Origin: a virus
Reading direction: 5' to 3' (one strand)
DNA: 64,000 nucleotides
Virus record (IMG/VR): IMGVR_UViG_3300042691_015370
Span: 80,888 to 144,887 of that record
The position numbers and the translations under genes were made by a program. Shown piece after piece: positions 48,369 through 64,000 of this stretch (within the stretch, counting starts at the first letter, position 1; each line of letters starts with the position of its first letter). The notes under the pieces are model-generated. The model did no database searches, was not told the DNA's origin, and saw only the letters and a list, made by a program, of their open reading frames with translations.

Positions 48369-48880
48369 TGCCGATCAATGGCGGAAAAACATTTATCAAT
48401 ATGGGTCAGTACGTTGTTGATCGTATTCAAACATCTGGACCGGGTGCTCTCAACATACCAGACGAGAAGATCATAGGATGGGGAAATAGGGGAGTATTTG
48501 CTGAAACCTACGAATTCGTTGACCCAAAAATCCCTAGATTCGATTATCCCTACGTCCACTTAAATTTCCTCAACGCACTTGCTAATGAGATGCGTAAAAT
48601 GTACACATCTCGCGATTTTGCATTCGTTGGCACAAACCAACTGATGGAATTCATTTTGGACCTTATGCCAACTAGCGGTGCATATATCCCCAAGCAAGGT
48701 TTTCAGCAACCTCAATACGTTGGCAATGATCTTTTTTTAGGTTTTTATAGAGGCGTAGGACTTTATACCACATCTGATCCGAACCATGGCTCTAAGGTTA
48801 TGACTGTGATGGAGATGAAATTTGATCCACCGTCAAGGAAAGAGTTGGTGCGAGTGCGATTTGAGAGACTTAGCCCTTAG
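48368..48880 (+). CDS. Protein whose N-terminal 40 aa are homologous to the major tail protein N-terminus
   Basis: 21/40 identical, ungapped, to the N-terminus of 9419..10762; the remainder appears unrelated. Confidence 0.7.
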   Translation: MPINGGKTFINMGQYVVDRIQTSGPGALNIPDEKIIGWGNRGVFAETYEFVDPKIPRFDYPYVHLNFLNALANEMRKMYTSRDFAFVGTNQLMEFILDLMPTSGAYIPKQGFQQPQYVGNDLFLGFYRGVGLYTTSDPNHGSKVMTVMEMKFDPPSRKELVRVRFERLSP

Positions 48881-50136
48881 TCTTCTAACAAACTAGAGAC
48901 TAGTTCCGCAATAGGTGAACGCTCGGATCTTGTGAGTGTAACGTGGGCAAACAGATGCTCCCCGGCCAGCGACGAGATTACTGAAGTAATTCCATCATAC
49001 TTTCCCACACGCAGGTTGTCGCGTTGTGCTACATCGTGAGTTAAAACGATCTTGGAGTTACTGCCGATCCGGCTCATGGCTGTCAGAAGTACCATTTTCT
49101 CCAAGTTCTGCGCCTCGTCCACGATGACGTAGGAATCGGTAAGGGTTCGGCCCCTTATGTGCGTAAGAGGAAGCACTTCCAGCAGTTCCCGCTCAACTAC
49201 TTCTTCAATGACGTTTTCGCCACAGATAGACTCCAAAGCATCGAAAACTGCGGCTGCCCATGGCGACATTTTCTCTTCTGCTGTCCCCGGTAGGAAGCCA
49301 AGATCTTGTCCACCAACAGCGTACAATGGCCGAAACACAACCACTCTACGGTGCATTCTGCGCTCCAAAACGGACTCCAGACCCGCAGCTAGAGCAAGAA
49401 CACTCTTGCCAGTACCTGCTGCACCACCAATGGACACAATGCCAATATCAGGGTCCATGAGTGCGTCGAGTGCGAATTTCTGCTCTGCGCTACGTCCACG
49501 AAGATCAAACACCTGTCGATCCTTGACGTGGATTATCTGTTCTCCACGCTTACGTGCAAGTGCAGAGCCATATGGTGATTTCGTGATCAGATATGTGTTT
49601 TCTGGGATGTGTAGAGTGGTTTCGTCAGTCGGAATGCACTCGTAGTCGTATAAGTCATTCAGTTGATTGTCTGAGACAGCGATTTCGGCCCATCCACTCC
49701 AGTTATCGACCATTTTGTCGGGCTGATAGTCGTCTGTTTGCACGCCTGCTACTGAAGCCTTCAGTCGTAGCGGCAAATCCTTGGTCAGTAGGGTGACATC
49801 ATCGGTTTTTGCAAGATTTGACGCTACTGCAAGGATTTTGTTGTCATTAGTGGGTTCTTTGAACGCATTTGGCAGTTCAGAGTCAAAAATGTTGTTTATT
49901 TCGACTCTAATGGACCCATTTGCACTATTTTTGACTTTTTGCGTGATATTTTGACTTTTTCGGCACTTTTCGAGCGTTTTTAGTGCATTTCGGGCTGCAA
50001 ATCCCAGTTCTGGATGGTTTCGCTTGGCTTCTAGCTCGGTTATTACTATCAAAGGTATAACCAAATCCTTATCCTTTAGGCGCTCAAACGCCTTAGGGTC
50101 AGACAATAACACCGACGTATCAAGCACATATACCAT
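48877..50136 (-). CDS. phoH: PIN-PhoH (PhoH2-like) protein
   Basis: PIN: YVLDTSVLL, NDNKIL, TKDLPLR. PhoH: GAAGTGKS, RGRTL, IVDEAQN. Confidence 0.92.
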   Translation of the reverse strand: MVYVLDTSVLLSDPKAFERLKDKDLVIPLIVITELEAKRNHPELGFAARNALKTLEKCRKSQNITQKVKNSANGSIRVEINNIFDSELPNAFKEPTNDNKILAVASNLAKTDDVTLLTKDLPLRLKASVAGVQTDDYQPDKMVDNWSGWAEIAVSDNQLNDLYDYECIPTDETTLHIPENTYLITKSPYGSALARKRGEQIIHVKDRQVFDLRGRSAEQKFALDALMDPDIGIVSIGGAAGTGKSVLALAAGLESVLERRMHRRVVVFRPLYAVGGQDLGFLPGTAEEKMSPWAAAVFDALESICGENVIEEVVERELLEVLPLTHIRGRTLTDSYVIVDEAQNLEKMVLLTAMSRIGSNSKIVLTHDVAQRDNLRVGKYDGITSVISSLAGEHLFAHVTLTRSERSPIAELVSSLLED

Positions 50137-50715: not shown

Positions 50716-51468
50716 TCACTTACCGTCCCGAATGTTCTGAAGATTGGCACACAGCCACCACTTCGTGCTATCACCAACGACACCAACCGGATCAAGAATC
50801 TTCAAACCCAGCTTCTTGCAGTTCTGCTGAAAACCAGCAACGTGCATGAACGTCACTGGGCCATAAATACCATCAACCACGATCCCAGCATTTTGTATAA
50901 TGTTCAGCGACTGCTGAAGAAGCTTTATGTCCTCATTCCAAGACTTGTTGTTGAGTGGCGTTCTCACATTCTGCATCTTGGGAAGTAGAATACCTGCATT
51001 CCAGCGGCGAATAGCATTCCAGTCAGGTACAGCAGGTGCCGGTGGACGCACAACTTGCTGCACACGAGCACGAGTCAGTCTACGAGCCGCATCCCATGTA
51101 AGTTCGATATGCACATGATCCGTGTGAGGATTAACACCTGTATAGGCTGCACCTCTTGGATAGCGAGCACTGTAAATGCGTCTATTCCAGATGATCATCT
51201 GAATACCAAGGGTACCAACATGAGGCAGTAGAGCCTGTACTAGTCGAGTACCTGCTGGATTACCAACACCAGAGAACCCAACGTCAAGCGCACGACCCTC
51301 GCCATGCACTGAACGGTTCGTGCTGCCACGAACGCTACGGCAATTGTAAATACCATAGTTGCGAGCACCCTGACGAAAATCATGAACAGCCCAATCCATC
51401 AAAGCCTGTGCTCCGGGCTGAGTTCTACCGGTGCAAGCACCAGCGGCAGTGTATGCGGGCCAACTCAT
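50716..51468 (-). CDS. Endolysin: M15-like Zn peptidase plus peptidoglycan-binding domain
   Basis: SVHGEGRALD and HTDHVH motifs; IKLLQQSL...VDGIYGPVT...FQ. Confidence 0.8.
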   Translation of the reverse strand: MSWPAYTAAGACTGRTQPGAQALMDWAVHDFRQGARNYGIYNCRSVRGSTNRSVHGEGRALDVGFSGVGNPAGTRLVQALLPHVGTLGIQMIIWNRRIYSARYPRGAAYTGVNPHTDHVHIELTWDAARRLTRARVQQVVRPPAPAVPDWNAIRRWNAGILLPKMQNVRTPLNNKSWNEDIKLLQQSLNIIQNAGIVVDGIYGPVTFMHVAGFQQNCKKLGLKILDPVGVVGDSTKWWLCANLQNIRDGK

Positions 51469-54203: not shown

Positions 54204-54413
54204 TCAATCCTCGTACTCAACAACAGTGTCGAAGCCACCATCTACTTGCCGAACCTCAATGATGGTTGCCTCAAACTCTTCCCCGTCCATCTCAACAGTC
54301 ACGATCTTGCCCACCTGTTCCTTCAGCACCTTGCGCAGAATCTTGTCCCGAGCATGCTGAGGTAGTAAAGGGATGTGTGGTAGGTCTAATGGGAAGTGCG
54401 TTTTGATTCTCAT
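54204..54413 (-). CDS. Small hypothetical protein
   Basis: C-terminal part of a track ORF looks protein-like; start uncertain. Confidence 0.4.
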   Translation of the reverse strand: MRIKTHFPLDLPHIPLLPQHARDKILRKVLKEQVGKIVTVEMDGEEFEATIIEVRQVDGGFDTVVEYED

Positions 54414-54694
54414 ACACCATGTTACGGGCCAACATGCAAGAAATTGCATATATGCAAGCAATAATGTGAAAAATTGCAGTGATATTGCAGGATTCACACC
54501 AAAATTGCGACAAACAAAGAGTTGGAATGCAATACTTTGCCAGTGGGCAGCAGGCAATACCGCCCAGTCCCTAGTAAACACGGGGTTCGGCCCCGGGGGG
54601 TGGTGCGACGGGTCGATCCGGGGTACATTGGTGTTGTCCCCGCCGCCGAGGTGAGCGGGGGGGGGGAGCGGCAAGGCTCCCCGAACATAGGCAC

Positions 54695-54723
54695 TTGACT
54701 GCTACGCTTAGGCGTGTCATGCT
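54695..54723 (+). promoter_or_regulatory. Sigma70/SigA-type promoter (TTGACT-17bp-CATGCT, extended -10 TG)
   Basis: Near-consensus hexamers with 17-bp spacing at the start of the plus-strand high-GC region. Confidence 0.65.
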
Positions 54724-54729
54724 CGTGTC

Positions 54730-55420
54730 GTACAAGGGAGTATCGGTCCCGCCTAACAGGCCGCACCGTTAACCATCGGCAGTGCTAGTTCTGAACAGCT
54801 AGCGTGTCAGTCCACCGGGCATCCCTCATAGCCAACCTCGCTATCCTGCGATTCTGGTCCTGCCGTGGCAGGTGCATAGTCTCCCCACCTAGAGTGGCGA
54901 CGAGTGCGAACCGGACCCCAACGTGGTGCAAGCTAGATAGTCGCCCCTGTGACGAGAGGTATTGGCACGCTTCCCCTAGCGTGAAGTCTGTCCCCATGCG
55001 ACAGGTATGGACTGATGCTAGGTACGCCGTAAAGGAAGTGTGAGCTAGTGCGACGGGGAGCCTACCTAGGTAGTGCGCCACAATAGGAGCTAGCGTCATC
55101 GGTTAGGGACGGCCCGGTAAGAACGGGGTGCTACTGAGAACGGTGTGGGTATGTGTCGGACCCACGGGTGACTGGACAGTGCAACGTCAGGGACGGCCAC
55201 GGACGACTGAGTGCGAAGCCTGCCCGGAAACCAACCTAAGTGTAAGAGCGCCTAAAGCTTACCGCAACCCTAACCTACGCCCAGAGTCGAGAGACTAGGG
55301 CTTAGCAAGTGTGCCCGCTGGGCCGACCGTGCAACTGCACTCCAGAACGCTTGCTACGCCGGTCCTCCTAAGGCTCGACGTCTGCTCTGGGCGCCATGCG
55401 ACAGAGGTTCGCAGTAGCTA
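54730..55420 (+). ncRNA. Candidate large structured non-coding RNA
   Basis: No credible ORF; several nested long-range helices found by eye (see findings); directly downstream of the promoter. Confidence 0.6.
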
Positions 55421-55437
55421 GCACATGGAGGACCATC

Positions 55438-55842
55438 GTGTCCGAGAACACCGCAATCACCCCCGAGATGGCGCAGGCCGAGATCGACCGGCGTGCCGCC
55501 AACAAGGCCGCCAAGGCAGCGGCCCGCAAGCAGGGTGCCAAGAAGTTCACCCGCATCGCCGCCACCGACCCGGTGCTCATGGCCCTGTCGGGTGAGCAGT
55601 TGGACCTGCTCGTCAAGCCCGCCGAGGCCCAGCCCGAGGTGCCCACCATCAAGACCGCCCCGGCGTGGAACGAGCCGGGTGTGCGGGGTGGCGACCCGGT
55701 GAAGCGCAACCGGGCGCTGCTGGCCGACAAGCTGGTGGGTGCCGACTCCAAGGGCACCCCGGCGTGGTGGGACGCCTACCGCTCGACCAAGGACATGACC
55801 TTGGACGAGTTGGGTGTGGCGCTCGGGTTCATCACCGCCTGA
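55438..55842 (+). CDS. Hypothetical early protein
   Basis: GTG start with GGAGG RBS; strong GC3 codon bias. Confidence 0.7.
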   Translation: MSENTAITPEMAQAEIDRRAANKAAKAAARKQGAKKFTRIAATDPVLMALSGEQLDLLVKPAEAQPEVPTIKTAPAWNEPGVRGGDPVKRNRALLADKLVGADSKGTPAWWDAYRSTKDMTLDELGVALGFITA

Positions 55843-55849
55843 GATGCCA

Positions 55850-55875
55850 AGTCCTGAGCATGACTGAAACTGCTC
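55850..55875 (+). repeat. Pseudoknot motif copy 1
   Basis: AGTC-CTGAGCAT-GACT-GAAAC-TGCTC. Confidence 0.75.
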
Positions 55876-55941
55876 GCCCCTACACCTAGGGTGTGGTGCT
55901 TCGATGCACGCTAGGGGGCCACCTGCGAGAAAGGTACATGC

Positions 55942-56139
55942 ATGAGCAAGCCCGTCCCGCCACCGCCACCCACACGGCGCAACGTGTTCTCCCCGACCGA
56001 CCGTGACCCCAAGGTCACCCGTACCCGCACGGCCTACACCGTGGACCGTACCAGCCGCCCCGGTGTGGTGACCCGCTCGCACACCGAGGGCAAGCTGACC
56101 CGGCGTGAGTTGGAGCGCATGATGAAGTACCGGGGCTGA
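55942..56139 (+). CDS. Hypothetical basic protein
   Basis: 65 aa, GC3 bias, RBS. Confidence 0.6.
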   Translation: MSKPVPPPPPTRRNVFSPTDRDPKVTRTRTAYTVDRTSRPGVVTRSHTEGKLTRRELERMMKYRG

Positions 56140-56173
56140 GATCACACACCGGGCAAACGTCCATAAGACCAGC

Positions 56174-56530
56174 TTGGAGGCTGAGTTGAGCAAGCGCACC
56201 TACAACTACATGGCACCCCGTGCCCTGCGAGCGAACATGCGATCCCGCTCCAAGACCGAAGATCCGATGCACGATCCCCGCAAGCACGAGCGTCGGGTGG
56301 AGCAGATCCCGTCCGAGTACCGCACCCTGCCCGGATCACCGCAGCACATCGTGTCGAACATGCCCGCAGTGTCGAGTGTGCTGGGCATGATGGGTGAGAA
56401 GCAGGCCCGCTACCGGGTCGAGAAGGACAACAAGCGCACCGAGTACGTCGGTCGCACCTCCAAGCTCCCCGAGTGTGGGCCGAGCGCCCGCAAGTCCGAC
56501 AACCACCGAGCCGCAGCAGACGGGAAGTGA
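56174..56530 (+). CDS. Hypothetical basic protein
   Basis: GC3 bias; true start may be TTG at 56186 after GGAGG. Confidence 0.6.
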   Translation: MEAELSKRTYNYMAPRALRANMRSRSKTEDPMHDPRKHERRVEQIPSEYRTLPGSPQHIVSNMPAVSSVLGMMGEKQARYRVEKDNKRTEYVGRTSKLPECGPSARKSDNHRAAADGK

Positions 56531-56532
56531 CC

Positions 56533-56736
56533 ATGAACGAGCGCAACCGACGAACCACCAAGCCACGCCCAGCACGACCCACCATCGTCTACCGCATCGG
56601 TGGCATCAGGTGGGTGCCATGCACGCAGACCGAGGCCGAGTGGTACTACCACGCCGCCGAGGGTCAGGTGTACCCCAACGTGTGCTACCCAGTCATGCAC
56701 AAGGGGCACGCTGTCATGCCAGTCCGTCCACTCTAG
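56533..56736 (+). CDS. Hypothetical protein
   Basis: Start MNERN; GC3 bias. Confidence 0.55.
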   Translation: MNERNRRTTKPRPARPTIVYRIGGIRWVPCTQTEAEWYYHAAEGQVYPNVCYPVMHKGHAVMPVRPL

Positions 56737-56751
56737 CGAGAGGCTAGTCCC

Positions 56752-57054
56752 ATGACCGAGACAGTCAACGGTCGTCCCGTCAAGAACTTCGTCGCCATGT
56801 TCGTCCCGCTCAGCATCTGTGCCTTGCCCGAGGAAATGGGCCTCAAGGGCACGGGTGTGCAGATCCCCGGCTTCACCCATGAGGGCATGACCGTGGAGCC
56901 ACACCTCGTGACCGAGGTGATGGAGGGTCACAACTGCGTGACCGTGGAACCGGGTCGCAAGGCCCACATCTTCGCAACCCGTGCAGAGGCGGAAGCCTTC
57001 GTAGAAGCACAGACAGTCCGCAAGTCGGGCTGGATGGTCCTTCCCCGTACCTAG
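56752..57054 (+). CDS. Hypothetical protein
   Basis: 100 aa with GAGG RBS. Confidence 0.6.
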   Translation: MTETVNGRPVKNFVAMFVPLSICALPEEMGLKGTGVQIPGFTHEGMTVEPHLVTEVMEGHNCVTVEPGRKAHIFATRAEAEAFVEAQTVRKSGWMVLPRT

Positions 57055-57068
57055 GAGGTACACACATC

Positions 57069-57218
57069 ATGACCAACCCCACCAAGACCAAGCACGTCGT
57101 CCGTACCAAGACCCACATGCAGGCGTTCAGCGACGAGCGTGACCGCCGCATCGTGGACTGGGTGCTGACCGCCGAGTCCGAGGACTGGGAAGCCTCCCAG
57201 TCCCAGCCCATCGACTGA
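57069..57218 (+). CDS. Small hypothetical protein (49 aa, not in track)
   Basis: AGGAGG RBS; MTNPTKTKHVVRTK... Confidence 0.6.
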   Translation: MTNPTKTKHVVRTKTHMQAFSDERDRRIVDWVLTAESEDWEASQSQPID

Positions 57219-57279
57219 CCACAGCTACCTTGCCAGTGTGCAAGGGGTGTGGTGAGAGGAACGAGATGTTCACTACACA

Positions 57280-57545
57280 GTCCTGAGCAGGACACGAAAC
57301 TGACTCAACGATGCCACACTGTACCGGGTCGTCCGGGCAGGAGATGGACGAGCGGCTGGCCGCACGCACAGCGTTTACATGAATGGTCCTGAGTAAGACT
57401 TTAAACATCTGCTCACATAGCCCTAGCACACAGTTGCAGAGGGAATGGCACTGAGCAATGCCACACAAATTGCTCCCGCAACGTAGGTGCTACGGCAACT
57501 TGGAGTGTGAGTGATAGCTGGTCCTGAGTATGACGTAAACTGCTC
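57280..57545 (+). repeat. Cluster of four pseudoknot motif copies (57280, 57386, 57446, 57521)
   Basis: GTCCTGAGCAGGACACGAAACTGACTC; GTCCTGAGTAAGACTTTAAACATCTGCTC; TGGCACTGAGCAATGCCACACAAATTGCTC; GTCCTGAGTATGACGTAAACTGCTC. Confidence 0.75.
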
Positions 57546-57604
57546 CGCTAGGGTGACGTGTTATATCACCCCCGAGGCTACGGACGGTAAGCCGTGGCAA
57601 ACGT

Positions 57605-57699
57605 TTGTAAAGGTAGCCACCCAAGGGGCCTTAGTCAAGGGTGTAGCCAAACCGCTACTAGCAGGCTGGTGTCGTAAGTCAGCCCTACCTTTACAACCA
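57605..57699 (+). ncRNA. tRNA-sized multibranch element ending in CCA
   Basis: TTGTAAAGGTAG pairs with CTACCTTTACAA, encloses hairpins, and is followed by CCA. Confidence 0.45.
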
Positions 57700-57767
57700 C
57701 ACCATCGTATGGTGTGTCTAGTAAGCGTAACAAGGAATCGGTAGCGTCCCCGCACCCTCCGGGTGTG

Positions 57768-57862
57768 AAGAAGGGTGGGCTGATCCCTGACCGGAGTTCA
57801 CGCAGCAACCGTGCTGGTGCCGGGGTGAAGGACAGCGGGCTAGGTTCGACTCCAGCCTTCTT
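57768..57862 (+). ncRNA. tRNA-like element (acceptor-like stem plus T-loop)
   Basis: AAGAAGG/CCTTCTT stem and GGTTCGACTCC T-arm; no canonical anticodon arm. Confidence 0.45.
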
Positions 57863-57908
57863 GTTGCGCTTATTAGCTACACCAACCAAGCCCATGAGAG
57901 GGATTTGC

Positions 57909-58190
57909 ATGCCCATGCCCGAGATGCCCAACCGCCGAGACAGTGCCTTCCGTAGCCTGTCACCCACCGAGTCCTGCACGCAGAAGGTCCACACCACGGG
58001 TGTGCAGTGGGTCTACAAGTTCGACAACGGGTGGGGCGCATCCATCATCACCGATGGCTCCGGGTGTCAGATGGGGCTGTTTGAGGTGGCTCCCATCGAC
58101 CCCAAGAACGGGTTGGATGACATGGGTGTGCGGGGCTACCTGACCGCAGCCGATGTCATCGACTACCTGCGAGACATCGCCACCCGCTGA
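57909..58190 (+). CDS. Hypothetical protein
   Basis: YKFDNGWGASII...GLFEVA...GVRGYLT, a pattern seen in small phage proteins. Confidence 0.7.
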   Translation: MPMPEMPNRRDSAFRSLSPTESCTQKVHTTGVQWVYKFDNGWGASIITDGSGCQMGLFEVAPIDPKNGLDDMGVRGYLTAADVIDYLRDIATR

Positions 58191-58348
58191 ACGCAAGAAC
58201 GTCAGTCTGGCTGGATTGATCCCCGGACCTGACAACGTGTGGGTCTAGCACTAGGTAAGAATTGTTGGCCTCGTTTAGAGTGTTTGAGCCGCAATCGCCC
58301 ACACAACCATCGCAAGTTCCCAACCCGCCTTTAAGGAGGCACCCAGCA

Positions 58349-58609
58349 ATGACCACCATCACCACCCTGACCACCTACACCGCCATCTTCGCCGTGGGCG
58401 ACCACAAGCTGCCCATCAAGGTGGCCGCTGCCAACCGAGGTGAGGCGACCAACCTCGCCCGCAAGATCCTGCGGGAGCGCATCGGTGACCCCACCTACGG
58501 CAACTTCCCGATCTCGGTCGTGGAGCAGCCCGTGAAGGTGGGTGCCCGTGCCATCGCCACCAACCCCACGGTGGTGAAGCGCAAGGTGCGTACCCGCACC
58601 CAGAGCTAG
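58349..58609 (+). CDS. Hypothetical protein
   Basis: AAGGAGG RBS, GC3 bias. Confidence 0.65.
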   Translation: MTTITTLTTYTAIFAVGDHKLPIKVAAANRGEATNLARKILRERIGDPTYGNFPISVVEQPVKVGARAIATNPTVVKRKVRTRTQS

Positions 58610-58656
58610 TTCCCTAGCTAACCAACCCAACCAACCACGACGCCACAGGAGGCAAC

Positions 58657-58884
58657 GTGAGCAACACTCCCATCCGTACCGTGACGGTCAAGCCCCTCGC
58701 TCTCAAGCAGGAGCAGGGCCGTCGCCGCAACAACAAGTCCCGCCCCGCAGGCGAGAAGGTCCGCACCAAGGCGTACTACCTCGCTGCCTTCAGCAAGTCC
58801 GAGATGGATGCGCTGGTGGCCGGTGAGACTGTGACCAAGACCTACAAGTCCGGTCGCACCGAGAGCTACGTGCTCGCCAAGTGA
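58657..58884 (+). CDS. Hypothetical basic protein
   Basis: AGGAGG RBS, GTG start. Confidence 0.65.
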   Translation: MSNTPIRTVTVKPLALKQEQGRRRNNKSRPAGEKVRTKAYYLAAFSKSEMDALVAGETVTKTYKSGRTESYVLAK

Positions 58885-58889
58885 GTTAC

Positions 58890-58916
58890 CGTCCTGAGCA
58901 TGACGTTAAACTACTC
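58890..58916 (+). repeat. Pseudoknot motif copy 6
   Basis: CGTC-CTGAGCAT-GACG-TTAAAC-TACTC. Confidence 0.7.
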
Positions 58917-59056
58917 AACGGTCTAACATAGCCACCTAAACATGAGTCCAAATGCGGCAGTTTGGGAAAGCAAAGTATGTTCGGCCCCCGGTGGTGAGCA
59001 AGCAATCCGGCGCTAAGCTATTAGCGATAGTGCGACTAGTGACCACAAATAGCATG

Positions 59057-59143
59057 AACGGTTAGGTAAGTAGGCAGACGTGAATGCGCTTGGGGGTGTT
59101 ACAGCCGTCAAGAAGCGGGTTAAACTCCCGCCTAACCGTTTCA
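59057..59143 (+). ncRNA. Degenerate tRNA-like element
   Basis: AACGGTTAG/CTAACCGTT stem and GCGGG-TTAAACT-CCCGC T-arm; irregular D and anticodon arms. Confidence 0.45.
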
Positions 59144-59144
59144 T

Positions 59145-59218
59145 GCGGGTAAGCGTAGGCTGTGCCGGTCAGATTCCAAACCTGTACCGCTGGGGTTCGA
59201 TTCCCTGTACCCGTGCCA
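59145..59218 (+). tRNA. tRNA, probably Trp(CCA), with atypical D and anticodon arms
   Basis: Acceptor GCGGGTA/TACCCGT, discriminator G, encoded CCA, T-loop GGTTCGATTCC, anticodon loop TTCCAAA. Confidence 0.6.
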
Positions 59219-59242
59219 CACGACACCCTTTAAGGAGGGATG

Positions 59243-59401
59243 ATGAGCAAGCCCAAGAGCAACGTCCCTCCCACACCGAGGGCAGACCCCCGCATGTGGC
59301 GGGTCAACCAGCGTGCAGTCAAGCACGCCATCCAGCCCAAGAAGAACGACCGCAACGCTTGCCGCAAGAACAAGGGCAGGCGCAACCGAGAGGACTACTG
59401 A
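59243..59401 (+). CDS. Small basic protein (52 aa, not in track)
   Basis: AAGGAGG RBS; MSKPKSNVPPTPRADPRMWR... Confidence 0.55.
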   Translation: MSKPKSNVPPTPRADPRMWRVNQRAVKHAIQPKKNDRNACRKNKGRRNREDY

Positions 59402-59595
59402 TGAGCAAGCCGATGGGCTGGGCCACCACCACGACAAAGTTCATCCACCGCAATGGCGTGGTGGAACTTCGCTCCGACGACCCCACTGCCACCGTGTGTA
59501 GTGAGTGTGGACGTGGCTGGGACGACAGCGTGTCCACCGCAACGACGCCCGCACCCGCTGGCCGGTGTCCCTTTGAGTACGAGCACGGAAGGTAA
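59401..59595 (+). CDS. Small Cys-containing protein
   Basis: CSECGRGWDD...GRCPFEYEH. Confidence 0.6.
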   Translation: MSKPMGWATTTTKFIHRNGVVELRSDDPTATVCSECGRGWDDSVSTATTPAPAGRCPFEYEHGR

Positions 59596-59598
59596 GTC

Positions 59599-60144
59599 AT
59601 GGCTGACATCTTCGCAACCGCAGACCTACACCTTGGGCATGACTTCGTAGGCTGTGGTATCCGTGGCTTCGACACGGTGCAGGACCACGACGACTACATC
59701 ACCCATGTGTGGAACAGCACCATCCGTCCCCGTGACGAGGTGTGGTTCCTTGGTGACTTCCGCATGGGACAGTGCTCACAGGAGCGTGCCCGTAGCATCT
59801 TCCACTCACTGCATGGGATCAAGCACATGGTGCGTGGCAACCATGACCCCAAGTGGGTGACTGAGCTAGGGTGGAGCAGCGTGCATGACCTTGTGCGCCG
59901 CAAGCTGAACGGTCACACCTACATCATGTGCCACTACCCGATGCTGACGTGGCCCAATGCACACCACGGATCGTGGCACCTGCACGGACACTCGCACGGG
60001 AACCTGAACGCACCTGAGTCCACACGTATGGACGTGGGCATCGACTGCCACCCTGAGCGTCGGCCTTTCTCCATTGACGAGATCGAAGCCATCCTGTCCA
60101 CCCGTACCTACGACTTCGTAGACCACCACACCGACGACGACTAG
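59599..60144 (+). CDS. Calcineurin-like phosphoesterase
   Basis: ADLHLGH, FLGDF, RGNHD, CHYP, LHGHSH. Confidence 0.9.
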   Translation: MADIFATADLHLGHDFVGCGIRGFDTVQDHDDYITHVWNSTIRPRDEVWFLGDFRMGQCSQERARSIFHSLHGIKHMVRGNHDPKWVTELGWSSVHDLVRRKLNGHTYIMCHYPMLTWPNAHHGSWHLHGHSHGNLNAPESTRMDVGIDCHPERRPFSIDEIEAILSTRTYDFVDHHTDDD

Positions 60145-60152
60145 GAGTCATC

Positions 60153-60458
60153 ATGTTCTGGCTAGCCTCAGTGTCCAGCAACAGCAGCGACGACGGCTTG
60201 CAGGGTCCGTACAACACCCTGACCGAAGCGGCCGAGGATCGCATCGTCGCTGCACAGGTAGTGGTGAACGACAACGGCCACATCGTCAAGGACGACACAT
60301 GGTTGTGGGACTGGGAGCGCAACACTGGCTCTGCGTCCTACGCATGGAGAATGCTCCACGGTGAGGGCGAGTGGGTCGCTCGTCACAACAAGTTCGGCAC
60401 AGGCTGGCAGAGCCACAACCCTGTGCTCCCGCCCGGACACTACAAGGATGGCCGATGA
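60153..60458 (+). CDS. Hypothetical protein
   Basis: AGGAG RBS. Confidence 0.55.
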   Translation: MFWLASVSSNSSDDGLQGPYNTLTEAAEDRIVAAQVVVNDNGHIVKDDTWLWDWERNTGSASYAWRMLHGEGEWVARHNKFGTGWQSHNPVLPPGHYKDGR

Positions 60459-60640
60459 GGATTGAGTACGTGTCATCCGTAAGCGAGGGCATGGTGCGGT
60501 TCTACCGTTCGGATGATGGCTACGAGGGTTTCCATTTCATGTCCCTCTCGTCATTCAGGGAGTACCTCGCACAAGAACGAGCAAGTCTCGACAAGCTAGA
60601 GACAGAGCTAGCTGAACTCATGGAGGACGAAGATGTTTGA
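60455..60640 (+). CDS. Hypothetical protein
   Basis: ATGA overlap. Confidence 0.5.
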   Translation: MRIEYVSSVSEGMVRFYRSDDGYEGFHFMSLSSFREYLAQERASLDKLETELAELMEDEDV

Positions 60641-60935
60641 TTGCCTGCACATCGACAACCACAACGTCCCGCTCTGCGGGGCCGCTGGCTTCGACCGTGA
60701 CATGGTTGTGGCCGAGGCGACCTTCACCGAGAATCCCTACGGGGACCGTCGGTGCTGGGAGTGTGCCAGCATCATCGGAGTAGACCTGACTCCTACCCTG
60801 CCCACCATCGACCCGGAGGATGACTACGAGGGTGACGACACTGCCGAGGCTCTGCGGCATGACCGTCTAAGCTCAGAGTTCTGTGGATTCTGTGCCACCC
60901 GCCACCACCCCAACCAGCCCTGTCAGGAGGACTGA
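60633..60935 (+). CDS. Hypothetical Cys/His-rich protein
   Basis: CWEC and CGFC...HH..QPC. Confidence 0.55.
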   Translation: MFDCLHIDNHNVPLCGAAGFDRDMVVAEATFTENPYGDRRCWECASIIGVDLTPTLPTIDPEDDYEGDDTAEALRHDRLSSEFCGFCATRHHPNQPCQED

Positions 60936-60936
60936 T

Positions 60937-61122
60937 ATGTGGATCACCATGGGCACCAAGTTCAGCGACCCCGCTGATGAGAGCATCGTCTGGGAAGTCA
61001 ACCCCGGCTCGGTGTTCGATGACGACACCTTCCAAGCAGAACTGATCGCCGGTCCTGAGGGCAGGCTCGGTGAGATGACGCTGTTCACCCGTGCAGACAT
61101 CGAAGCGGGACTGTTGCCATGA
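60937..61122 (+). CDS. Hypothetical protein
   Basis: AGGAGG RBS. Confidence 0.55.
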   Translation: MWITMGTKFSDPADESIVWEVNPGSVFDDDTFQAELIAGPEGRLGEMTLFTRADIEAGLLP

Positions 61123-61313
61123 GTGAGCGTCAGTTCACAGACCGTCAGTTGATCGTCAAGCTGCTTGACGAGAACCTCAAAGCCCTACACCCGAGTCGTG
61201 GCAAGGAGAACGCACGACTGGTGCGCCTTGTGTGTGAGGAAATCGGTGCCTGTGAGGACGATTTCTTGGCACGACACATCAAGCGAGACAAGAAGGCATG
61301 GGGCCTTGACTGA
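61119..61313 (+). CDS. Hypothetical protein
   Basis: ATGA overlap. Confidence 0.5.
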   Translation: MSERQFTDRQLIVKLLDENLKALHPSRGKENARLVRLVCEEIGACEDDFLARHIKRDKKAWGLD

Positions 61314-61478
61314 GGACAAGGTGTTCTTCTACGTCGTGCGGCACTTGGGCAAGGACGGACATGAGGTGTATGTGGGACCGTTCGACTACAAGTTCCAAGC
61401 ACGCAAGTACCTGCTAGACGAAACTGGTTCACCGAACGGTGGGCTAGTGATCCTCGTACTGACACCCAAGGACAGCAA

Positions 61479-61748
61479 GTGAGAACACACGTCGAAGTGC
61501 GGCCCACGATGCAGCAGACCATCGACATCACAAGGGCACAGGATCACGCATGGGGTGTGGGTTCATGGGGTGCTGGTGAGTTCTGGGGCATCATCCTGAA
61601 GAATCTGGATGGCAAGTTCGATGTCCAGATCAACAACAACATGGGCATCCATCCCTTGATGGGTCAGACGAGTACCTTGGAGAATGCCAAAGCTATGATC
61701 CGCAAGCATATTGAGTTCGCTGTCCACTGCACACCTGAGAGAGACTGA
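61479..61748 (+). CDS. Hypothetical protein
   Basis: GTGA overlap. Confidence 0.5.
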   Translation: MRTHVEVRPTMQQTIDITRAQDHAWGVGSWGAGEFWGIILKNLDGKFDVQINNNMGIHPLMGQTSTLENAKAMIRKHIEFAVHCTPERD

Positions 61749-62333
61749 CATTCCTACCGCAACTGTCGGTGTCGTAGACGTAGAGCTACGAGAGATGAGC
61801 AAGGGCCACTACGTTGTGGTGGTCGCACACAGCAAGTTCGGCTTGCTGTACGAGATCCAGATTGACGAGTTCGACAAAGACTCACTGGTGCAGGGCATCG
61901 AAATCGAATGCATCGACCGGATCAACAACGTGTCGCTAGACATCAACACCTTGGAGGATGTGTGAGTTCTGGGGGATACTGGTCGGTTGACTGGTATTGG
62001 CAGAGAGTCAAGGCAATGCGAGAGGCGGCAAACCTTTCGTGCCCTGACTTGCCCGACCATTGGGAGCCGATGGAACGACTCGCTTACCGTAGTGGGTGGC
62101 AGGACGCAATGAAGAAGGTCAAGGAGGCAGGCAAGTGAGTGACGTGCGATACATGCGGGTGGTTGGTCAGTGTGACAACACCACCTTCACCAAGCGACTG
62201 CTGACCTGTGGCACTGATGAGCAGACGCTGAACCTGCTCAACGACAGTTACCCCGGTGTCCACTTCTTTCAGGTGCTGGAGTGTGCAGAGTTGGGTGACC
62301 ACATCATCAAGTTCGTAGACTGAGGGAGAACAC

Positions 62334-62561
62334 ATGGCCGGTACCCTGAACACGATGCCCTTCTACGTCCAGCGTGAGTTGCTGGGCCGAGACTGGCACG
62401 AGTGCGTGTCTCAGCGTGACCTGAGGATGGTGTCGAACTACCGCAAGGTTGAGAACCGACGCACCCGTGCGCAGACCAAGCAGGCACTGCGACAGGAGCG
62501 TTACGACGATTTGCCCACACACTCCACGGCCCGAGGTTCGGCGCTGTGGCTGGCCTACTGA
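62334..62561 (+). CDS. Hypothetical basic protein
   Basis: GGGAG RBS. Confidence 0.55.
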   Translation: MAGTLNTMPFYVQRELLGRDWHECVSQRDLRMVSNYRKVENRRTRAQTKQALRQERYDDLPTHSTARGSALWLAY

Positions 62562-62571
62562 GAGGTTGACG

Positions 62572-63057
62572 ATGGATCTGATCGACTACATCTACGACGA
62601 GTGCCAGCGTCAGCATGTTGGAAACTACGGCGACTTTGCTACTGGCTGGCAGATCGCCAGAGATCGTGAAAGTGTCGGTTCTTGGCAGGAATTCGCAATC
62701 TTTGTCATGAGGATTGCAAGGGCAGTGGATTACGCCAACCTTTACCGTCCCGGTGAGGGTGAGAATCTGCGTACTTCACACGTTGGCTTCATGCACGGTG
62801 GCTCTGCTGCCCCTGCTGGCGAGGTTCGTGAACGGTTCGACCGCTGGTGCGAGTTCACTCACGAGTGGTTGCGAGATTGGGGGCCAATGGTTGATGGCTT
62901 GCAGCCCCCATACGAGATTGACTCTCTCATCAAGCAGTTGCTCGACATCCACCCGTGGGCCGATGGCAATGGTCGCACTGCAAGTATCCTTCGCAACTGG
63001 ATGCTGAGACAACTCGATGATCCCGAGCCGCTACCGTTTTACTACGGAGATACCTGA
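62572..63057 (+). CDS. Fic/Doc-family protein
   Basis: HPWADGNGRTAS motif. Confidence 0.85.
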   Translation: MDLIDYIYDECQRQHVGNYGDFATGWQIARDRESVGSWQEFAIFVMRIARAVDYANLYRPGEGENLRTSHVGFMHGGSAAPAGEVRERFDRWCEFTHEWLRDWGPMVDGLQPPYEIDSLIKQLLDIHPWADGNGRTASILRNWMLRQLDDPEPLPFYYGDT

Positions 63058-63449
63058 TGATCCTCGTGATTGATGACGAGCGCACGTTCGCTCAAGACCC
63101 AAACCTTGTTGGTTACGTTGATTGGGTGTATGCCCGCACGTCCGACGAGGGAATCGTTGCCATCGTCAAGGCATGGACCAACTACGCCCTGCACTATGGG
63201 AACATGGTCGATCTGTACCTTGACCACGATCTTGGTGAGGGTGACACGATCATGCCGGTCGTAGACTTCCTGTATGTGGCCGGAAGGCAGTCAGGTATCA
63301 TGAATCCATCTGACATGGTACGCCCACCGCAGTTCATCAGCAACATCTTCATTCATTCGCAGAACCCTACTGCGGGTGATACGATCATCCCCCTGCTCTC
63401 CCCCCTTTACAGTAACGTGCAGCGCATCCCGCTGCCCAAGCTTGTGTGA
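63057..63449 (+). CDS. Stand-alone receiver-like domain (cyclic-phosphate-processing receiver type)
   Basis: LVIDDER, LYLDHDLG, IHSQNP. Confidence 0.75.
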   Translation: MILVIDDERTFAQDPNLVGYVDWVYARTSDEGIVAIVKAWTNYALHYGNMVDLYLDHDLGEGDTIMPVVDFLYVAGRQSGIMNPSDMVRPPQFISNIFIHSQNPTAGDTIIPLLSPLYSNVQRIPLPKLV

Positions 63450-63456
63450 GGTAACC

Positions 63457-63687
63457 ATGCAACTAACCGTTGATCTCTACATCACGGACCCGTTTGACGA
63501 AGTGCAGACTCCGTGGCAGATAGAGTGGAACTATGGCAGTAAGATCGCTGCCGTCCGGTGTCGTCAGCCCTACATGGAGTGGCCGGTCGAGTTGGAGATT
63601 TCTCCCTTTGCTACGCTCGCTGGTGTGAAGCAGACGCTGACGCTGGTGTTGCGTACCCATGTTCGTGACCTGACAGGAATCGGTTGA
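63457..63687 (+). CDS. Hypothetical protein
   Basis: GAGG RBS. Confidence 0.5.
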   Translation: MQLTVDLYITDPFDEVQTPWQIEWNYGSKIAAVRCRQPYMEWPVELEISPFATLAGVKQTLTLVLRTHVRDLTGIG

Positions 63688-63893
63688 TGACTCCACGCAC
63701 TGAGAGTGTGATGATCCGTTGCTTGCAAACCTTCATGGCTTTGGTCATCGTAGGCTTTGTTGGCAACTTCGTGTACGAGGCGCACAAGATGTTCACCAAG
63801 GGTGACAACGTTGGTGGATGGATGGCTCTAGGAGTGGCGGCAGTGTTTGTCGCCATCGGAGTGCTGGGTTGGCTGGCACAGGAGGATGACTAA
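63684..63893 (+). CDS. Small membrane protein
   Basis: Two hydrophobic segments. Confidence 0.55.
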   Translation: MMTPRTESVMIRCLQTFMALVIVGFVGNFVYEAHKMFTKGDNVGGWMALGVAAVFVAIGVLGWLAQEDD

Positions 63894-64000
63894 TGGCTAA
63901 GCAGAGTTTGGTTGAGTCCTTTGAGGACTGTTACGGCGTGAAGCTTCCCACCTGTCGGGAAGTGTGCCCTGAGTGTGACGGATACGGTGAGTATGTGCAT

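What the first reader, a model, noticed from the sequence alone, without database searches (positions are those of the whole stretch)
54730..55420. Candidate novel large (~650-700 nt) structured RNA as the first product of the early promoter
The region has no credible ORF and follows TTGACT-17-CATGCT. Nested helices found by eye: GCG(A)TTCTGG 54848-57 with CCAGAACGC 55342-50, closing ~500 nt; GTGGTGCA 54923-30 with TGCGCCAC 55074-81; CACGCTTCC 54966-74 with GGAAGTGTG 55034-42; CCTAGC 54975-80 with GCTAGG 55017-22; GGTTAGGG 55101-08 with CCCTAACC 55268-75; CGGTAAG 55115-21 with CTTACCG 55258-64; and an AGTC-GAGA-GACT GNRA hairpin. G-U pairs favour the plus strand. I could not find RNase P, tmRNA or group II intron hallmarks. 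Size and context recall phage GOLLD/ROOL RNAs, but it may be a new class.
Basis: partly seen in the sequence, partly recalled or inferred. Interest (0 to 1): 0.8.

Follow-up and report, generated by a model that had tools for sequence, protein, structure and literature searches.

The report
Long non-coding leader behind early promoter
An uncultured 145-kb phage has about 707 bases with no gene between its likely early promoter and its first early gene, much like the abundant non-coding early RNA of mycobacteriophage L5, but nothing here shows it is a new large structured RNA.

Summary
Window 54731-55437 is truly non-coding and lies behind TTGACT-17-CATGCT. That promoter's -10 and discriminator match 11 of 13 bases of the experimentally mapped L5 Pleft early promoter.

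The claim of a large structured RNA is not supported statistically:
- The whole-leader fold is no better than shuffles (z -0.5 to -0.9).
- Stems of 7-9 bp are no more frequent than in shuffles.
- The 500-nt closing helix and the GNRA hairpin are not in the predicted ensemble.
- Rfam gives nothing at E<=10, so GOLLD, ROOL, RNase P, tmRNA and group I/II introns are all negative.

Three sub-domains fold with high pair probability. One reaches z -3.4, but its boundaries were chosen post hoc.

Only one syntenic relative could be fetched (L005). It also has an ORF-free leader, about 940 nt, before the homologous gene. That leader is strongly structured (z -5.5) but shares no detectable sequence with this one, so covariation cannot be tested.

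Best reading: a long early 5' leader or non-coding RNA analogous to the ~500-nt Pleft RNA of L5/D29, whose function is unknown. Interest is moderate.

The parts
54696..54724 (+). Sigma-A-type promoter: -35 TTGACT (54696-54701), 17-nt spacer, -10 CATGCT (54719-54724)
   Evidence: Read. The L5 Pleft promoter is TTGACA-18-CATTCT followed by tgtgtc and then +1 A (TSS mapped according to PMC5712189). The -10 plus discriminator is identical at 11 of 13 positions. The generic sigma-70 scan did not flag it, because it matches only 3 of 6 positions of TATAAT.
54731..55437 (+). ORF-free leader or candidate non-coding RNA, 707 nt. Composition A .22, C .29, G .31, T .18. The predicted TSS at 54731 is by analogy with L5.
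   Evidence: non-coding. (no Rfam family). (fold not better than shuffles). (composition).
54784..54803 (+). Small 5' hairpin whose two arms each contain CTAG
   Evidence: Sequence; CTAG positions.
54923..55081 (+). Domain 1: long irregular hairpin containing reader helices H2, H3 and H4
   Evidence: MFE -66.5 against -52.6 +/- 4.1 in shuffles, z -3.39, 0 of 200 shuffles as stable. Pair probabilities 0.90-0.99. The boundaries were chosen post hoc.
55101..55275 (+). Domain 2: branched domain closed by reader helices H5 and H6
   Evidence: z -1.73, 15 of 200 shuffles as stable. Pair probabilities 0.95-0.998.
55278..55393 (+). Domain 3: branched domain closed by a perfect 9-bp helix (55278-55286 with 55385-55393).
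   Evidence: MFE of 55255-55460. The 150-nt window 55250-55399 has z -3.16.
55356..55368 (+). Possible anti-Shine-Dalgarno segment, 85% complementary to 55427-55439 (SD plus start codon)
   Evidence: Inverted repeat I6. It is not used in the MFE, so it is only a possibility.
55427..55440 (+). Shine-Dalgarno GGAGGA (55427-55432) and GTG start codon (55438-55440) of the first early gene
   Evidence: The start is supported by the alignment with homologues and by the database gene call P0001.
55438..55842 (+). First early gene, 134 aa. It belongs to a small family with a nearly invariant G-x-RGGDP-x-K core. The fold is helical with no known match.
   Evidence: AF2 pLDDT 90.6. No PDB match. No Pfam or PHROG hit.

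Best explanation
Window 54731-55437 is the long untranslated leader of the phage's rightward early transcription unit. Host sigma-A RNA polymerase would start at the Pleft-like promoter (TSS about 54731). It would first make about 707 nt of ORF-free, purine-rich RNA, which folds into a 5' region plus three consecutive closed hairpin domains. It would then reach the first early gene at 55438.

By analogy with the ~500-nt Pleft RNA of mycobacteriophages L5, D29 and StarStuff, the leader probably accumulates as a stable RNA, possibly processed, and acts as RNA early in infection. Only part of the transcription would read through into the early genes. A possible anti-SD pairing could also limit translation of gene 1.

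Shown: the stretch is non-coding, the promoter resembles Pleft, and a relative has a syntenic ORF-free leader. Inferred: that it is transcribed, that the RNA is stable, and that it has any function in trans. It is not a member of any curated RNA family, and it is not demonstrably a conserved tertiary-structured RNA.
For: The stretch is non-coding. The promoter's -10 and discriminator are 11/13 identical to the mapped L5 Pleft promoter (PMC5712189).

Precedent: in L5/D29/StarStuff a ~500-nt ORF-free region lies between Pleft and gene 89. It is the most abundant and stable transcript, is processed to 100-400-nt species, and is toxic to the host.

The only syntenic relative, L005, has homologous gene 1 (44% identity) and gene 2. 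It also has an ORF-free stretch of about 940-970 nt beginning at TTGACT. That stretch is strongly structured, with z -5.5.

The three leaders have nearly the same purine-rich composition. The window is A .22, C .29, G .31, T .18. L005 is .25.26.30.19. L5 is .24.25.32.19.

The plus strand folds more stably than the minus strand in all three, by 10, 23 and 30 kcal/mol. GNRA/UNCG tetraloop hairpins number 4 on the plus strand against 2 on the minus in the window, and 6 against 2 in L005, which includes two 5-bp UACG hairpins. Domains 1-3 fold with high pair probability.
Against: There are no expression data for this uncultured phage. The whole-leader folding energy is like shuffled controls. There is no sequence similarity to the L005 leader or to the L5 RNA, so homology is unproven and covariation is untestable. 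The L005 promoter has a good -35 but no convincing -10. No terminator-like 3' end lies before gene 1. The actinobacterial host is itself an inference, from a WhiG-like sigma factor, the high-GC early genes and the Pleft-like promoter.
Confidence: 0.55

Rival explanations
1. A genuinely new class of large (0.7-1 kb) structured RNA with a conserved architecture. It would be positionally linked to the RGGDP-motif early gene and would evolve too fast in sequence for pairwise detection.
For: A long ORF-free leader is kept in position in two phages whose flanking protein is only 44% identical. The L005 leader has z -5.5 with several tetraloop-capped hairpins. Domain 1 of the window has z -3.4. CTAG is enriched in both leaders, with 11 in 742 nt (z 2.5) and 18 in 971 nt (z 4.2), against none in the coding rest of L005.
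Against: The window leader as a whole is no more stable than shuffles and has no excess of stems. No local similarity to L005 exceeds shuffles (p 0.17). The L005 minus strand scores as well as the plus strand (z -6.8), so its helices may equally be DNA-level inverted repeats. There is no G-U strand asymmetry. Nothing is found in Rfam.
Confidence: 0.15
2. A DNA-level element rather than an RNA. Examples are a spacer next to the genome terminus or cos site, a replication origin activated by transcription, or a platform of protein-binding inverted repeats in the divergent control region.
For: The stretch lies at the divergence point of leftward and rightward transcription, with an abrupt GC change. 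This has the same topology as the cos-proximal Pleft/Pright region of a circularised L5 (PMC5712189). A G10 run lies 30 nt upstream of the promoter, and the L005 contig starts with C8 148 nt upstream of its TTGACT. The helices are strand-symmetric. GC skew is locally positive at 54950-55250.
Against: The stretch lies downstream of the promoter, not upstream of it. There are no iterons or dispersed operator-like repeats. The AT-rich repeat boxes sit upstream at 54430-54545, outside the stretch. The L5 counterpart is shown to act through its transcript.
Confidence: 0.12
3. Functionless or decaying sequence, such as remains of lost early genes or a tolerated spacer. In that case the helices are what any 60% GC sequence of this length gives.
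For: Folding energy and stem counts are like shuffles. The ORF length distribution is that expected of random 60% GC sequence. Nothing is conserved with L005. The same early block holds other ORF-free stretches and a degenerate tRNA.
Against: Phage genomes rarely keep 0.7-1 kb of inert DNA. A long ORF-free stretch sits at the same place in a distant relative. There is no six-frame similarity between the two leaders, or to any part of the genome, that would mark a pseudogene. The L5 precedent shows that such regions can be the most expressed part of the genome.
Confidence: 0.15

Closest known systems
Pleft non-coding RNA of Cluster A mycobacteriophages (L5, D29, StarStuff; Dedrick et al. 2017, BMC Microbiol 17:225, PMC5712189)
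   Same: It is the first product of a sigma-A-type early lytic promoter with a near-identical -10 and discriminator. Several hundred ORF-free bases precede the first early gene. The purine-rich composition is the same. No canonical terminator lies before the first gene, as the authors also report for L5.
   Different: There is no sequence similarity. The window leader is longer (707 nt against about 500). The L5 RNA folds better than shuffles (z -3.7), whereas the window leader does not. L5 carries repressor stoperator sites inside the RNA, and no dispersed repeat of that kind is found here. L5 has no CTAG, against 11 in the 742-nt window stretch. Expression, stability and toxicity are known for L5 only.
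GOLLD and ROOL large RNAs (Rfam), often prophage-associated
   Same: The size range is similar, the setting is a phage, and the stretch is non-coding.
   Different: There is no match at E<=10 to these or any other Rfam model. There is no conserved core with the syntenic relative and no excess folding stability.
Long structured 5' leaders with expression platforms (riboswitch-like or antitermination leaders such as HK022 put)
   Same: It is located directly downstream of an early promoter, and an anti-SD segment could pair with the SD and start codon.
   Different: It is far longer than any such element. No family match is found. The anti-SD pairing is not favoured in the predicted ensemble.

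Membership tests
GOLLD / ROOL / HEARO / OLE / raiA (large bacterial and phage ncRNAs in Rfam) | Match to the family covariance model | tested here: not met
   cmscan of the whole window at gathering thresholds gave 0 hits. cmscan of 54300-55700 at E<=10 with permissive filters gave 0 hits.
RNase P, tmRNA, group I and group II introns, tRNA | Match to the covariance model, or an ARAGORN call | tested here: not met
Cluster A mycobacteriophage Pleft non-coding RNA | Starts at a sigma-A-type early lytic promoter of the Pleft type | tested here: met
   The window has TTGACT-17-CATGCT-cgtgtc and L5 has TTGACA-18-CATTCT-tgtgtc-A(+1). This is similarity only; the TSS is not mapped here.
Cluster A mycobacteriophage Pleft non-coding RNA | Several hundred ORF-free bases between the promoter and the first early gene | tested here: met
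   707 nt.
Cluster A mycobacteriophage Pleft non-coding RNA | Sequence homology to the L5/D29 RNA | tested here: not met
   The local alignment score is within shuffles (26.0 against 25.9 +/- 3.3). blastn against 50,697 phage records gave no match.
Cluster A mycobacteriophage Pleft non-coding RNA | Very abundant, stable transcript processed to smaller species, with about 90% of transcripts ending before the first gene, and toxic to the host | not testable with these tools
   The phage is uncultured and no transcript data are available.
Conserved structured RNA (generic criterion) | Folding energy below shuffled controls | tested here: not met
   Whole leader z -0.49 and -0.86. Only sub-domains reach z -3.2 to -3.4.
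Conserved structured RNA (generic criterion) | Covarying base pairs among homologues | not testable with these tools
   Only one relative (L005) was retrievable and it cannot be aligned.

The most novel reading that the evidence does not exclude
Uncultured actinophage-like viruses carrying the RGGDP-motif early gene keep a 0.7-1 kb multi-domain hairpin RNA as the first product of infection. It would be a fast-evolving functional counterpart of the toxic L5 Pleft RNA. It would act in trans on a host target, for example as a sponge or decoy during takeover. Its CTAG-bearing helices would be a class signature.
Probability: 0.2. Interest if true: 0.6.

Novelty: new variant of a known kind. Interest (0 to 1): 0.35.

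Why it matters
The function of the hugely abundant early non-coding RNA of L5/D29-type phages is still unknown. If this leader is transcribed and functional, such RNAs would not be a peculiarity of Cluster A mycobacteriophages. They would be a recurrent, sequence-unrelated feature of early operons in distant high-GC phages. That would give comparative material for asking what they do. As it stands, the window copy offers no statistical evidence of a defined structure. Its value is as a lead, and the L005 leader is the better one. It is not a discovery of a new RNA class.

Tried and rejected
Hidden coding: TAG=Q and TGA=W recoding open no long frame. No SD-led small ORF of 13 aa or more lies in the leader. 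The 104-aa minus-strand ORF has no homologue.

Known RNA families: none found.

Search for homologues:
- Neighbouring proteins and the gene-1 alignments A2-A4 were run against IMG/VR, JGI metagenomes and GTDB genomes. One search returned an error. Only L005 was found.
- Three terminase relatives (L002-L004) are fragments without this region.
- blastn and tblastn against 50,697 phage records gave nothing.
- A scan for the Pleft-like promoter pattern in IMG/VR returned one L5-like contig and chance hits.
- The scan's own index had no look-alike.

Other ideas tested:
- Dispersed operator or stoperator-like repeats: none.
- CTAG as a protein-site motif: the flanks are not conserved. Because CTAG is its own reverse complement, any helix arm carrying it has a partner CTAG, which accounts for part of the excess. 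The genome-wide maximum of CTAG density is here, but it is not extreme.
- A 6S-like mimic: domain 1 has no central bubble.
- Gene-1 fold as a clue to function: confident helical model but no PDB match.
- A 10-nt identity between the window's 5' end and the L005 ribosome-binding site: expected by chance.

Full report
**Context.** The window is the last 64 kb of a 144,887-bp IMG/VR virus contig, classed as linear and 89% complete. The finding sits where transcription diverges. Genes to the left are on the minus strand: PhoH-PIN at 48877-50136, an endolysin-like gene at 50716-51468, three unknown genes, and a small gene at about 54204-54413. From 55438 the genes are on the plus strand. GC content rises from about 46% to about 60% at roughly 54550. 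The last 10 kb of the contig is 57-60% GC against about 50% elsewhere. The phage has no close cultured relative. Its terminase is 44% identical to that of a mangrove-soil phage. An actinobacterial host is inferred from a complete sigma-70-family factor (noted earlier in the scan as WhiG-like), the very high GC3 of the early genes, and the promoter described below.

- Third-position GC shows no frame preference between 54540 and 55380. It jumps to 0.92-0.95 in one frame from 55440.
- The longest ORFs are 104 aa on the minus strand and 79 aa on the plus strand, as expected for random 60% GC sequence.
- Neither ORF has a Pfam hit. The 104-aa ORF has no homologue and was not even called as a gene in the 5.8-billion-protein collection.
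- Reading TAG or TGA as sense opens no long frame.
- No Shine-Dalgarno-led small ORF of 13 aa or more is present.

The first gene starts at GTG 55438 behind GGAGGA (55427-55432). This agrees with its homologues and with the database gene call. The leader therefore runs from about 54731 to 55437, 707 nt.

All seven helices exist at the stated coordinates. Five of them (54923-30/55074-81, 54966-74/55034-42, 54975-80/55017-22, 55101-08/55268-75 and 55115-21/55258-64) are in the MFE with pair probabilities of 0.90-0.998. The 500-nt closing helix has pair probability 0.00 and the GAGA hairpin 0.06. The hairpin competes with a perfect 9-bp helix (55278-86 with 55385-93) that closes a third domain.

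**Is it more than chance?** As a whole, it is not.
- The tool's fold of 54730-55420 gives -269.5 kcal/mol, z -0.49, with 6 of 20 shuffles as stable.
- My own run on 54731-55437 gives z -0.86, with 11 of 50 shuffles as stable.
- The minus strand gives z +1.1 to +1.3.
- Stems of at least 7, 8 and 9 bp are not more numerous than in dinucleotide shuffles: 107 against 144, 43 against 54, and 20 against 19.5.
- Sliding 150-nt windows hover around z = 0, except 55250-55399 at z -3.2.
- Domain 1 (54923-55081) taken alone gives z -3.39, with 0 of 200 shuffles as stable. Domain 2 gives z -1.73. These boundaries were chosen after seeing the helices, so the values are optimistic.
- G-U pairs number 23 on the plus strand and 25 on the minus strand, so the claimed G-U preference for the plus strand is not there. 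The plus-strand MFE is still about 10 kcal/mol lower.

**Known families.** Rfam 15 gives no match in the whole window at gathering scores. It gives none in 54300-55700 even at E<=10 with permissive filters. ARAGORN finds nothing. GOLLD, ROOL, RNase P, tmRNA and group I/II introns are thus tested and not met.

**Relatives.** The 134-aa product of gene 1 belongs to a very small family. It has 4 clusters by word search and 21 representatives at E<=1e-3 among 1.84 billion. The family has a nearly invariant G-x-RGGDP-x-K core. It has no Pfam or PHROG hit. Its AlphaFold model is confident and helical (pLDDT 90.6), with no PDB match.

Scans of IMG/VR, JGI metagenomes, GTDB genomes and cultured phages returned only one locus with this gene. 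That locus is L005, a 2518-nt metagenome contig. L005 is truly syntenic, because both gene 1 (44% identity) and the following small gene are homologous.

Upstream of its gene 1, L005 has an ORF-free stretch that begins with TTGACT at 148 and runs to the start codon at 1119. The long non-coding leader is therefore kept in place. The two leaders nevertheless share no detectable sequence:
- The best blastn E-value is 0.29.
- The local alignment score of 32.5 lies within shuffles (29.1 +/- 3.4, p 0.17), and the global score gives z 0.6.
- No six-frame similarity is found.

Unlike the window leader, the L005 leader is strongly structured. It folds to -407.8 kcal/mol against -349 +/- 11 in shuffles, z -5.5. 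Its minus strand scores equally well (z -6.8), so energy alone cannot tell RNA structure from DNA inverted repeats.

The features the two leaders share are compositional:
- Both are purine-rich on the plus strand.
- CTAG is enriched in both: 11 in 742 nt (z 2.5) and 18 in 971 nt (z 4.2), with none in the 1.4-kb coding rest of L005.
- GNRA/UNCG-capped hairpins are more frequent on the plus strand: 4 against 2 in the window and 6 against 2 in L005, including two 5-bp UACG hairpins.

Because CTAG is its own reverse complement, a helix arm that carries it always has a partner CTAG. This explains part of the excess.

**The precedent.** Dedrick et al. 2017 (PMC5712189) studied mycobacteriophages L5, D29 and StarStuff. 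They showed that the early lytic promoter Pleft is followed by about 500 bp with no ORF longer than about 30 codons before gene 89. This region gives the most abundant transcript of the whole genome. The transcript is stable and is processed to species of 100-400 nt. More than 90% of transcription does not continue into the genes, although no canonical terminator is evident. The region is toxic to M. smegmatis, and its role is unknown.

I fetched the L5 right end as locus L124. Upstream of the mapped TSS, L5 reads TTGACA, 18 nt, CATTCT, tgtgtc, then +1 A. The window reads TTGACT, 17 nt, CATGCT, cgtgtc, then G at 54731. The -10 hexamer plus discriminator is identical at 11 of 13 positions. The L5 RNA has almost the same base composition as the two leaders. 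It folds with z -3.7. It has no sequence similarity to either leader and contains no CTAG. This is the closest known thing. It is an analogue in position, promoter and composition, not a demonstrable homologue.

**Most likely explanation.** The stretch is the long 5' leader of the early operon, transcribed by host RNA polymerase immediately on infection. It is likely to persist as a non-coding RNA of the L5 Pleft kind (confidence 0.55). The non-coding nature, the promoter similarity and the syntenic persistence are shown. Transcription, stability, processing, attenuation before gene 1 and any action in trans are inferred. A segment at 55356-55368 is 85% complementary to the SD and start codon and could limit translation, but the predicted ensemble does not favour it.

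**Rivals.**
- A real new class of structured RNA whose sequence has diverged beyond pairwise detection (0.15).
- A DNA-level element at the junction of the two genome arms, for example near the physical ends (0.12). A G10 run lies just upstream of the promoter, and the L005 contig starts with C8 at the corresponding side.
- Inert or decaying sequence (0.15).

**What could not be done.** The short contigs that encode P0002 and P0003 (54-59% identical gene 1) and the near-identical variants of P0001 could not be fetched. They are the obvious material for a covariation test.

**Verdict.** The sequence-level observation is accurate, but the by-eye helices are what chance gives. It is wrong in emphasis, because there is no evidence for a GOLLD/ROOL-like or novel structured RNA. 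I rate it a new variant of a known but poorly understood kind, with moderate interest (0.35).

Noticed in passing
window 55851, 57279, 57386, 57521, 58890; loci L006-L123: The ~27-nt motif repeated in the early block (GTCCTGAG-Y-A-N-GAC, 2-3 nt, AAACT, then GCTC) is not private to this phage. The hits span very different GC contents, almost always with 3-nt spacing, and are followed by unsearched GCTC or ACTC. They are mostly intergenic, often 25-60 nt before an ATG, and some contigs carry 2-4 copies. The loop GAGCA/GAGUA can pair with the downstream UGCUC/UACUC as an H-type pseudoknot. Some copies show double changes and many show G-U pairs. No Rfam hit at E<=10.
   Followed up: partly
window 54430-54548: The AT-rich divergent control region carries about five ATTGCA-type boxes. 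It also has the perfect palindrome TGCATATATGCA at 54445-54456 and a 22-nt imperfect inverted repeat (54428-49 with 54527-48). These are likely operator sites for a regulator.
   Followed up: partly
window 54550-64000: The last ~10 kb of the contig is 57-60% GC, with third-position GC up to 0.95 in short genes, against about 50% GC for the other 135 kb. The change is abrupt at about 54550, next to a G10 run (54657-54666). This may reflect a different origin or a different expression regime for the early block. An assembly join was not excluded.
   Followed up: partly
window 57180-57850 and 58860-59220: There are further ORF-free stretches in the early block with the same base composition as the leader. 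A sub-threshold tRNA lies at 59145-59215 (Rfam tRNA 21.7 bits, E 0.38), while ARAGORN calls no tRNA in the whole window.
   Followed up: partly
L005:181-1118: The leader of the syntenic metagenome contig is far more structured than the window's (z -5.5). It has 18 CTAG, two 5-bp UACG-capped hairpins and a 35-nt-arm inverted repeat at 902-995. It is the better candidate for a structured early RNA.
   Followed up: partly
L124:834-929 minus strand (mycobacteriophage L5, record about 51133-51228): The 3' end of the published L5 Pleft non-coding RNA region weakly resembles a tRNA (Rfam tRNA-Sec 22.1 bits, E 0.23) and ends in a T-arm-like GGGTTCGATTCCC. This might bear on how its 3' end is formed, which the authors say is unclear.
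   Followed up: no
window 55438-55842: The first early gene defines a tiny metagenome-only family of 21 representatives among 1.84 billion proteins. It has a nearly invariant G-x-RGGDP-x-K core and a confident all-helical model with no PDB, Pfam or PHROG match.
   Followed up: partly
window 54204-54413 minus strand: A small gene of about 69 aa shows clear codon periodicity. It is the first gene of the leftward unit and has only a weak Tudor-knot-like Pfam hit (E 0.036).
   Followed up: no
window 54581-54595, 49143, 58979: A GC-rich hairpin motif (GGGTTCGGCCCC) recurs three times in the window. The copy at 54581-54595 is terminator-like on the minus strand, just upstream of the early promoter.
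   Followed up: no
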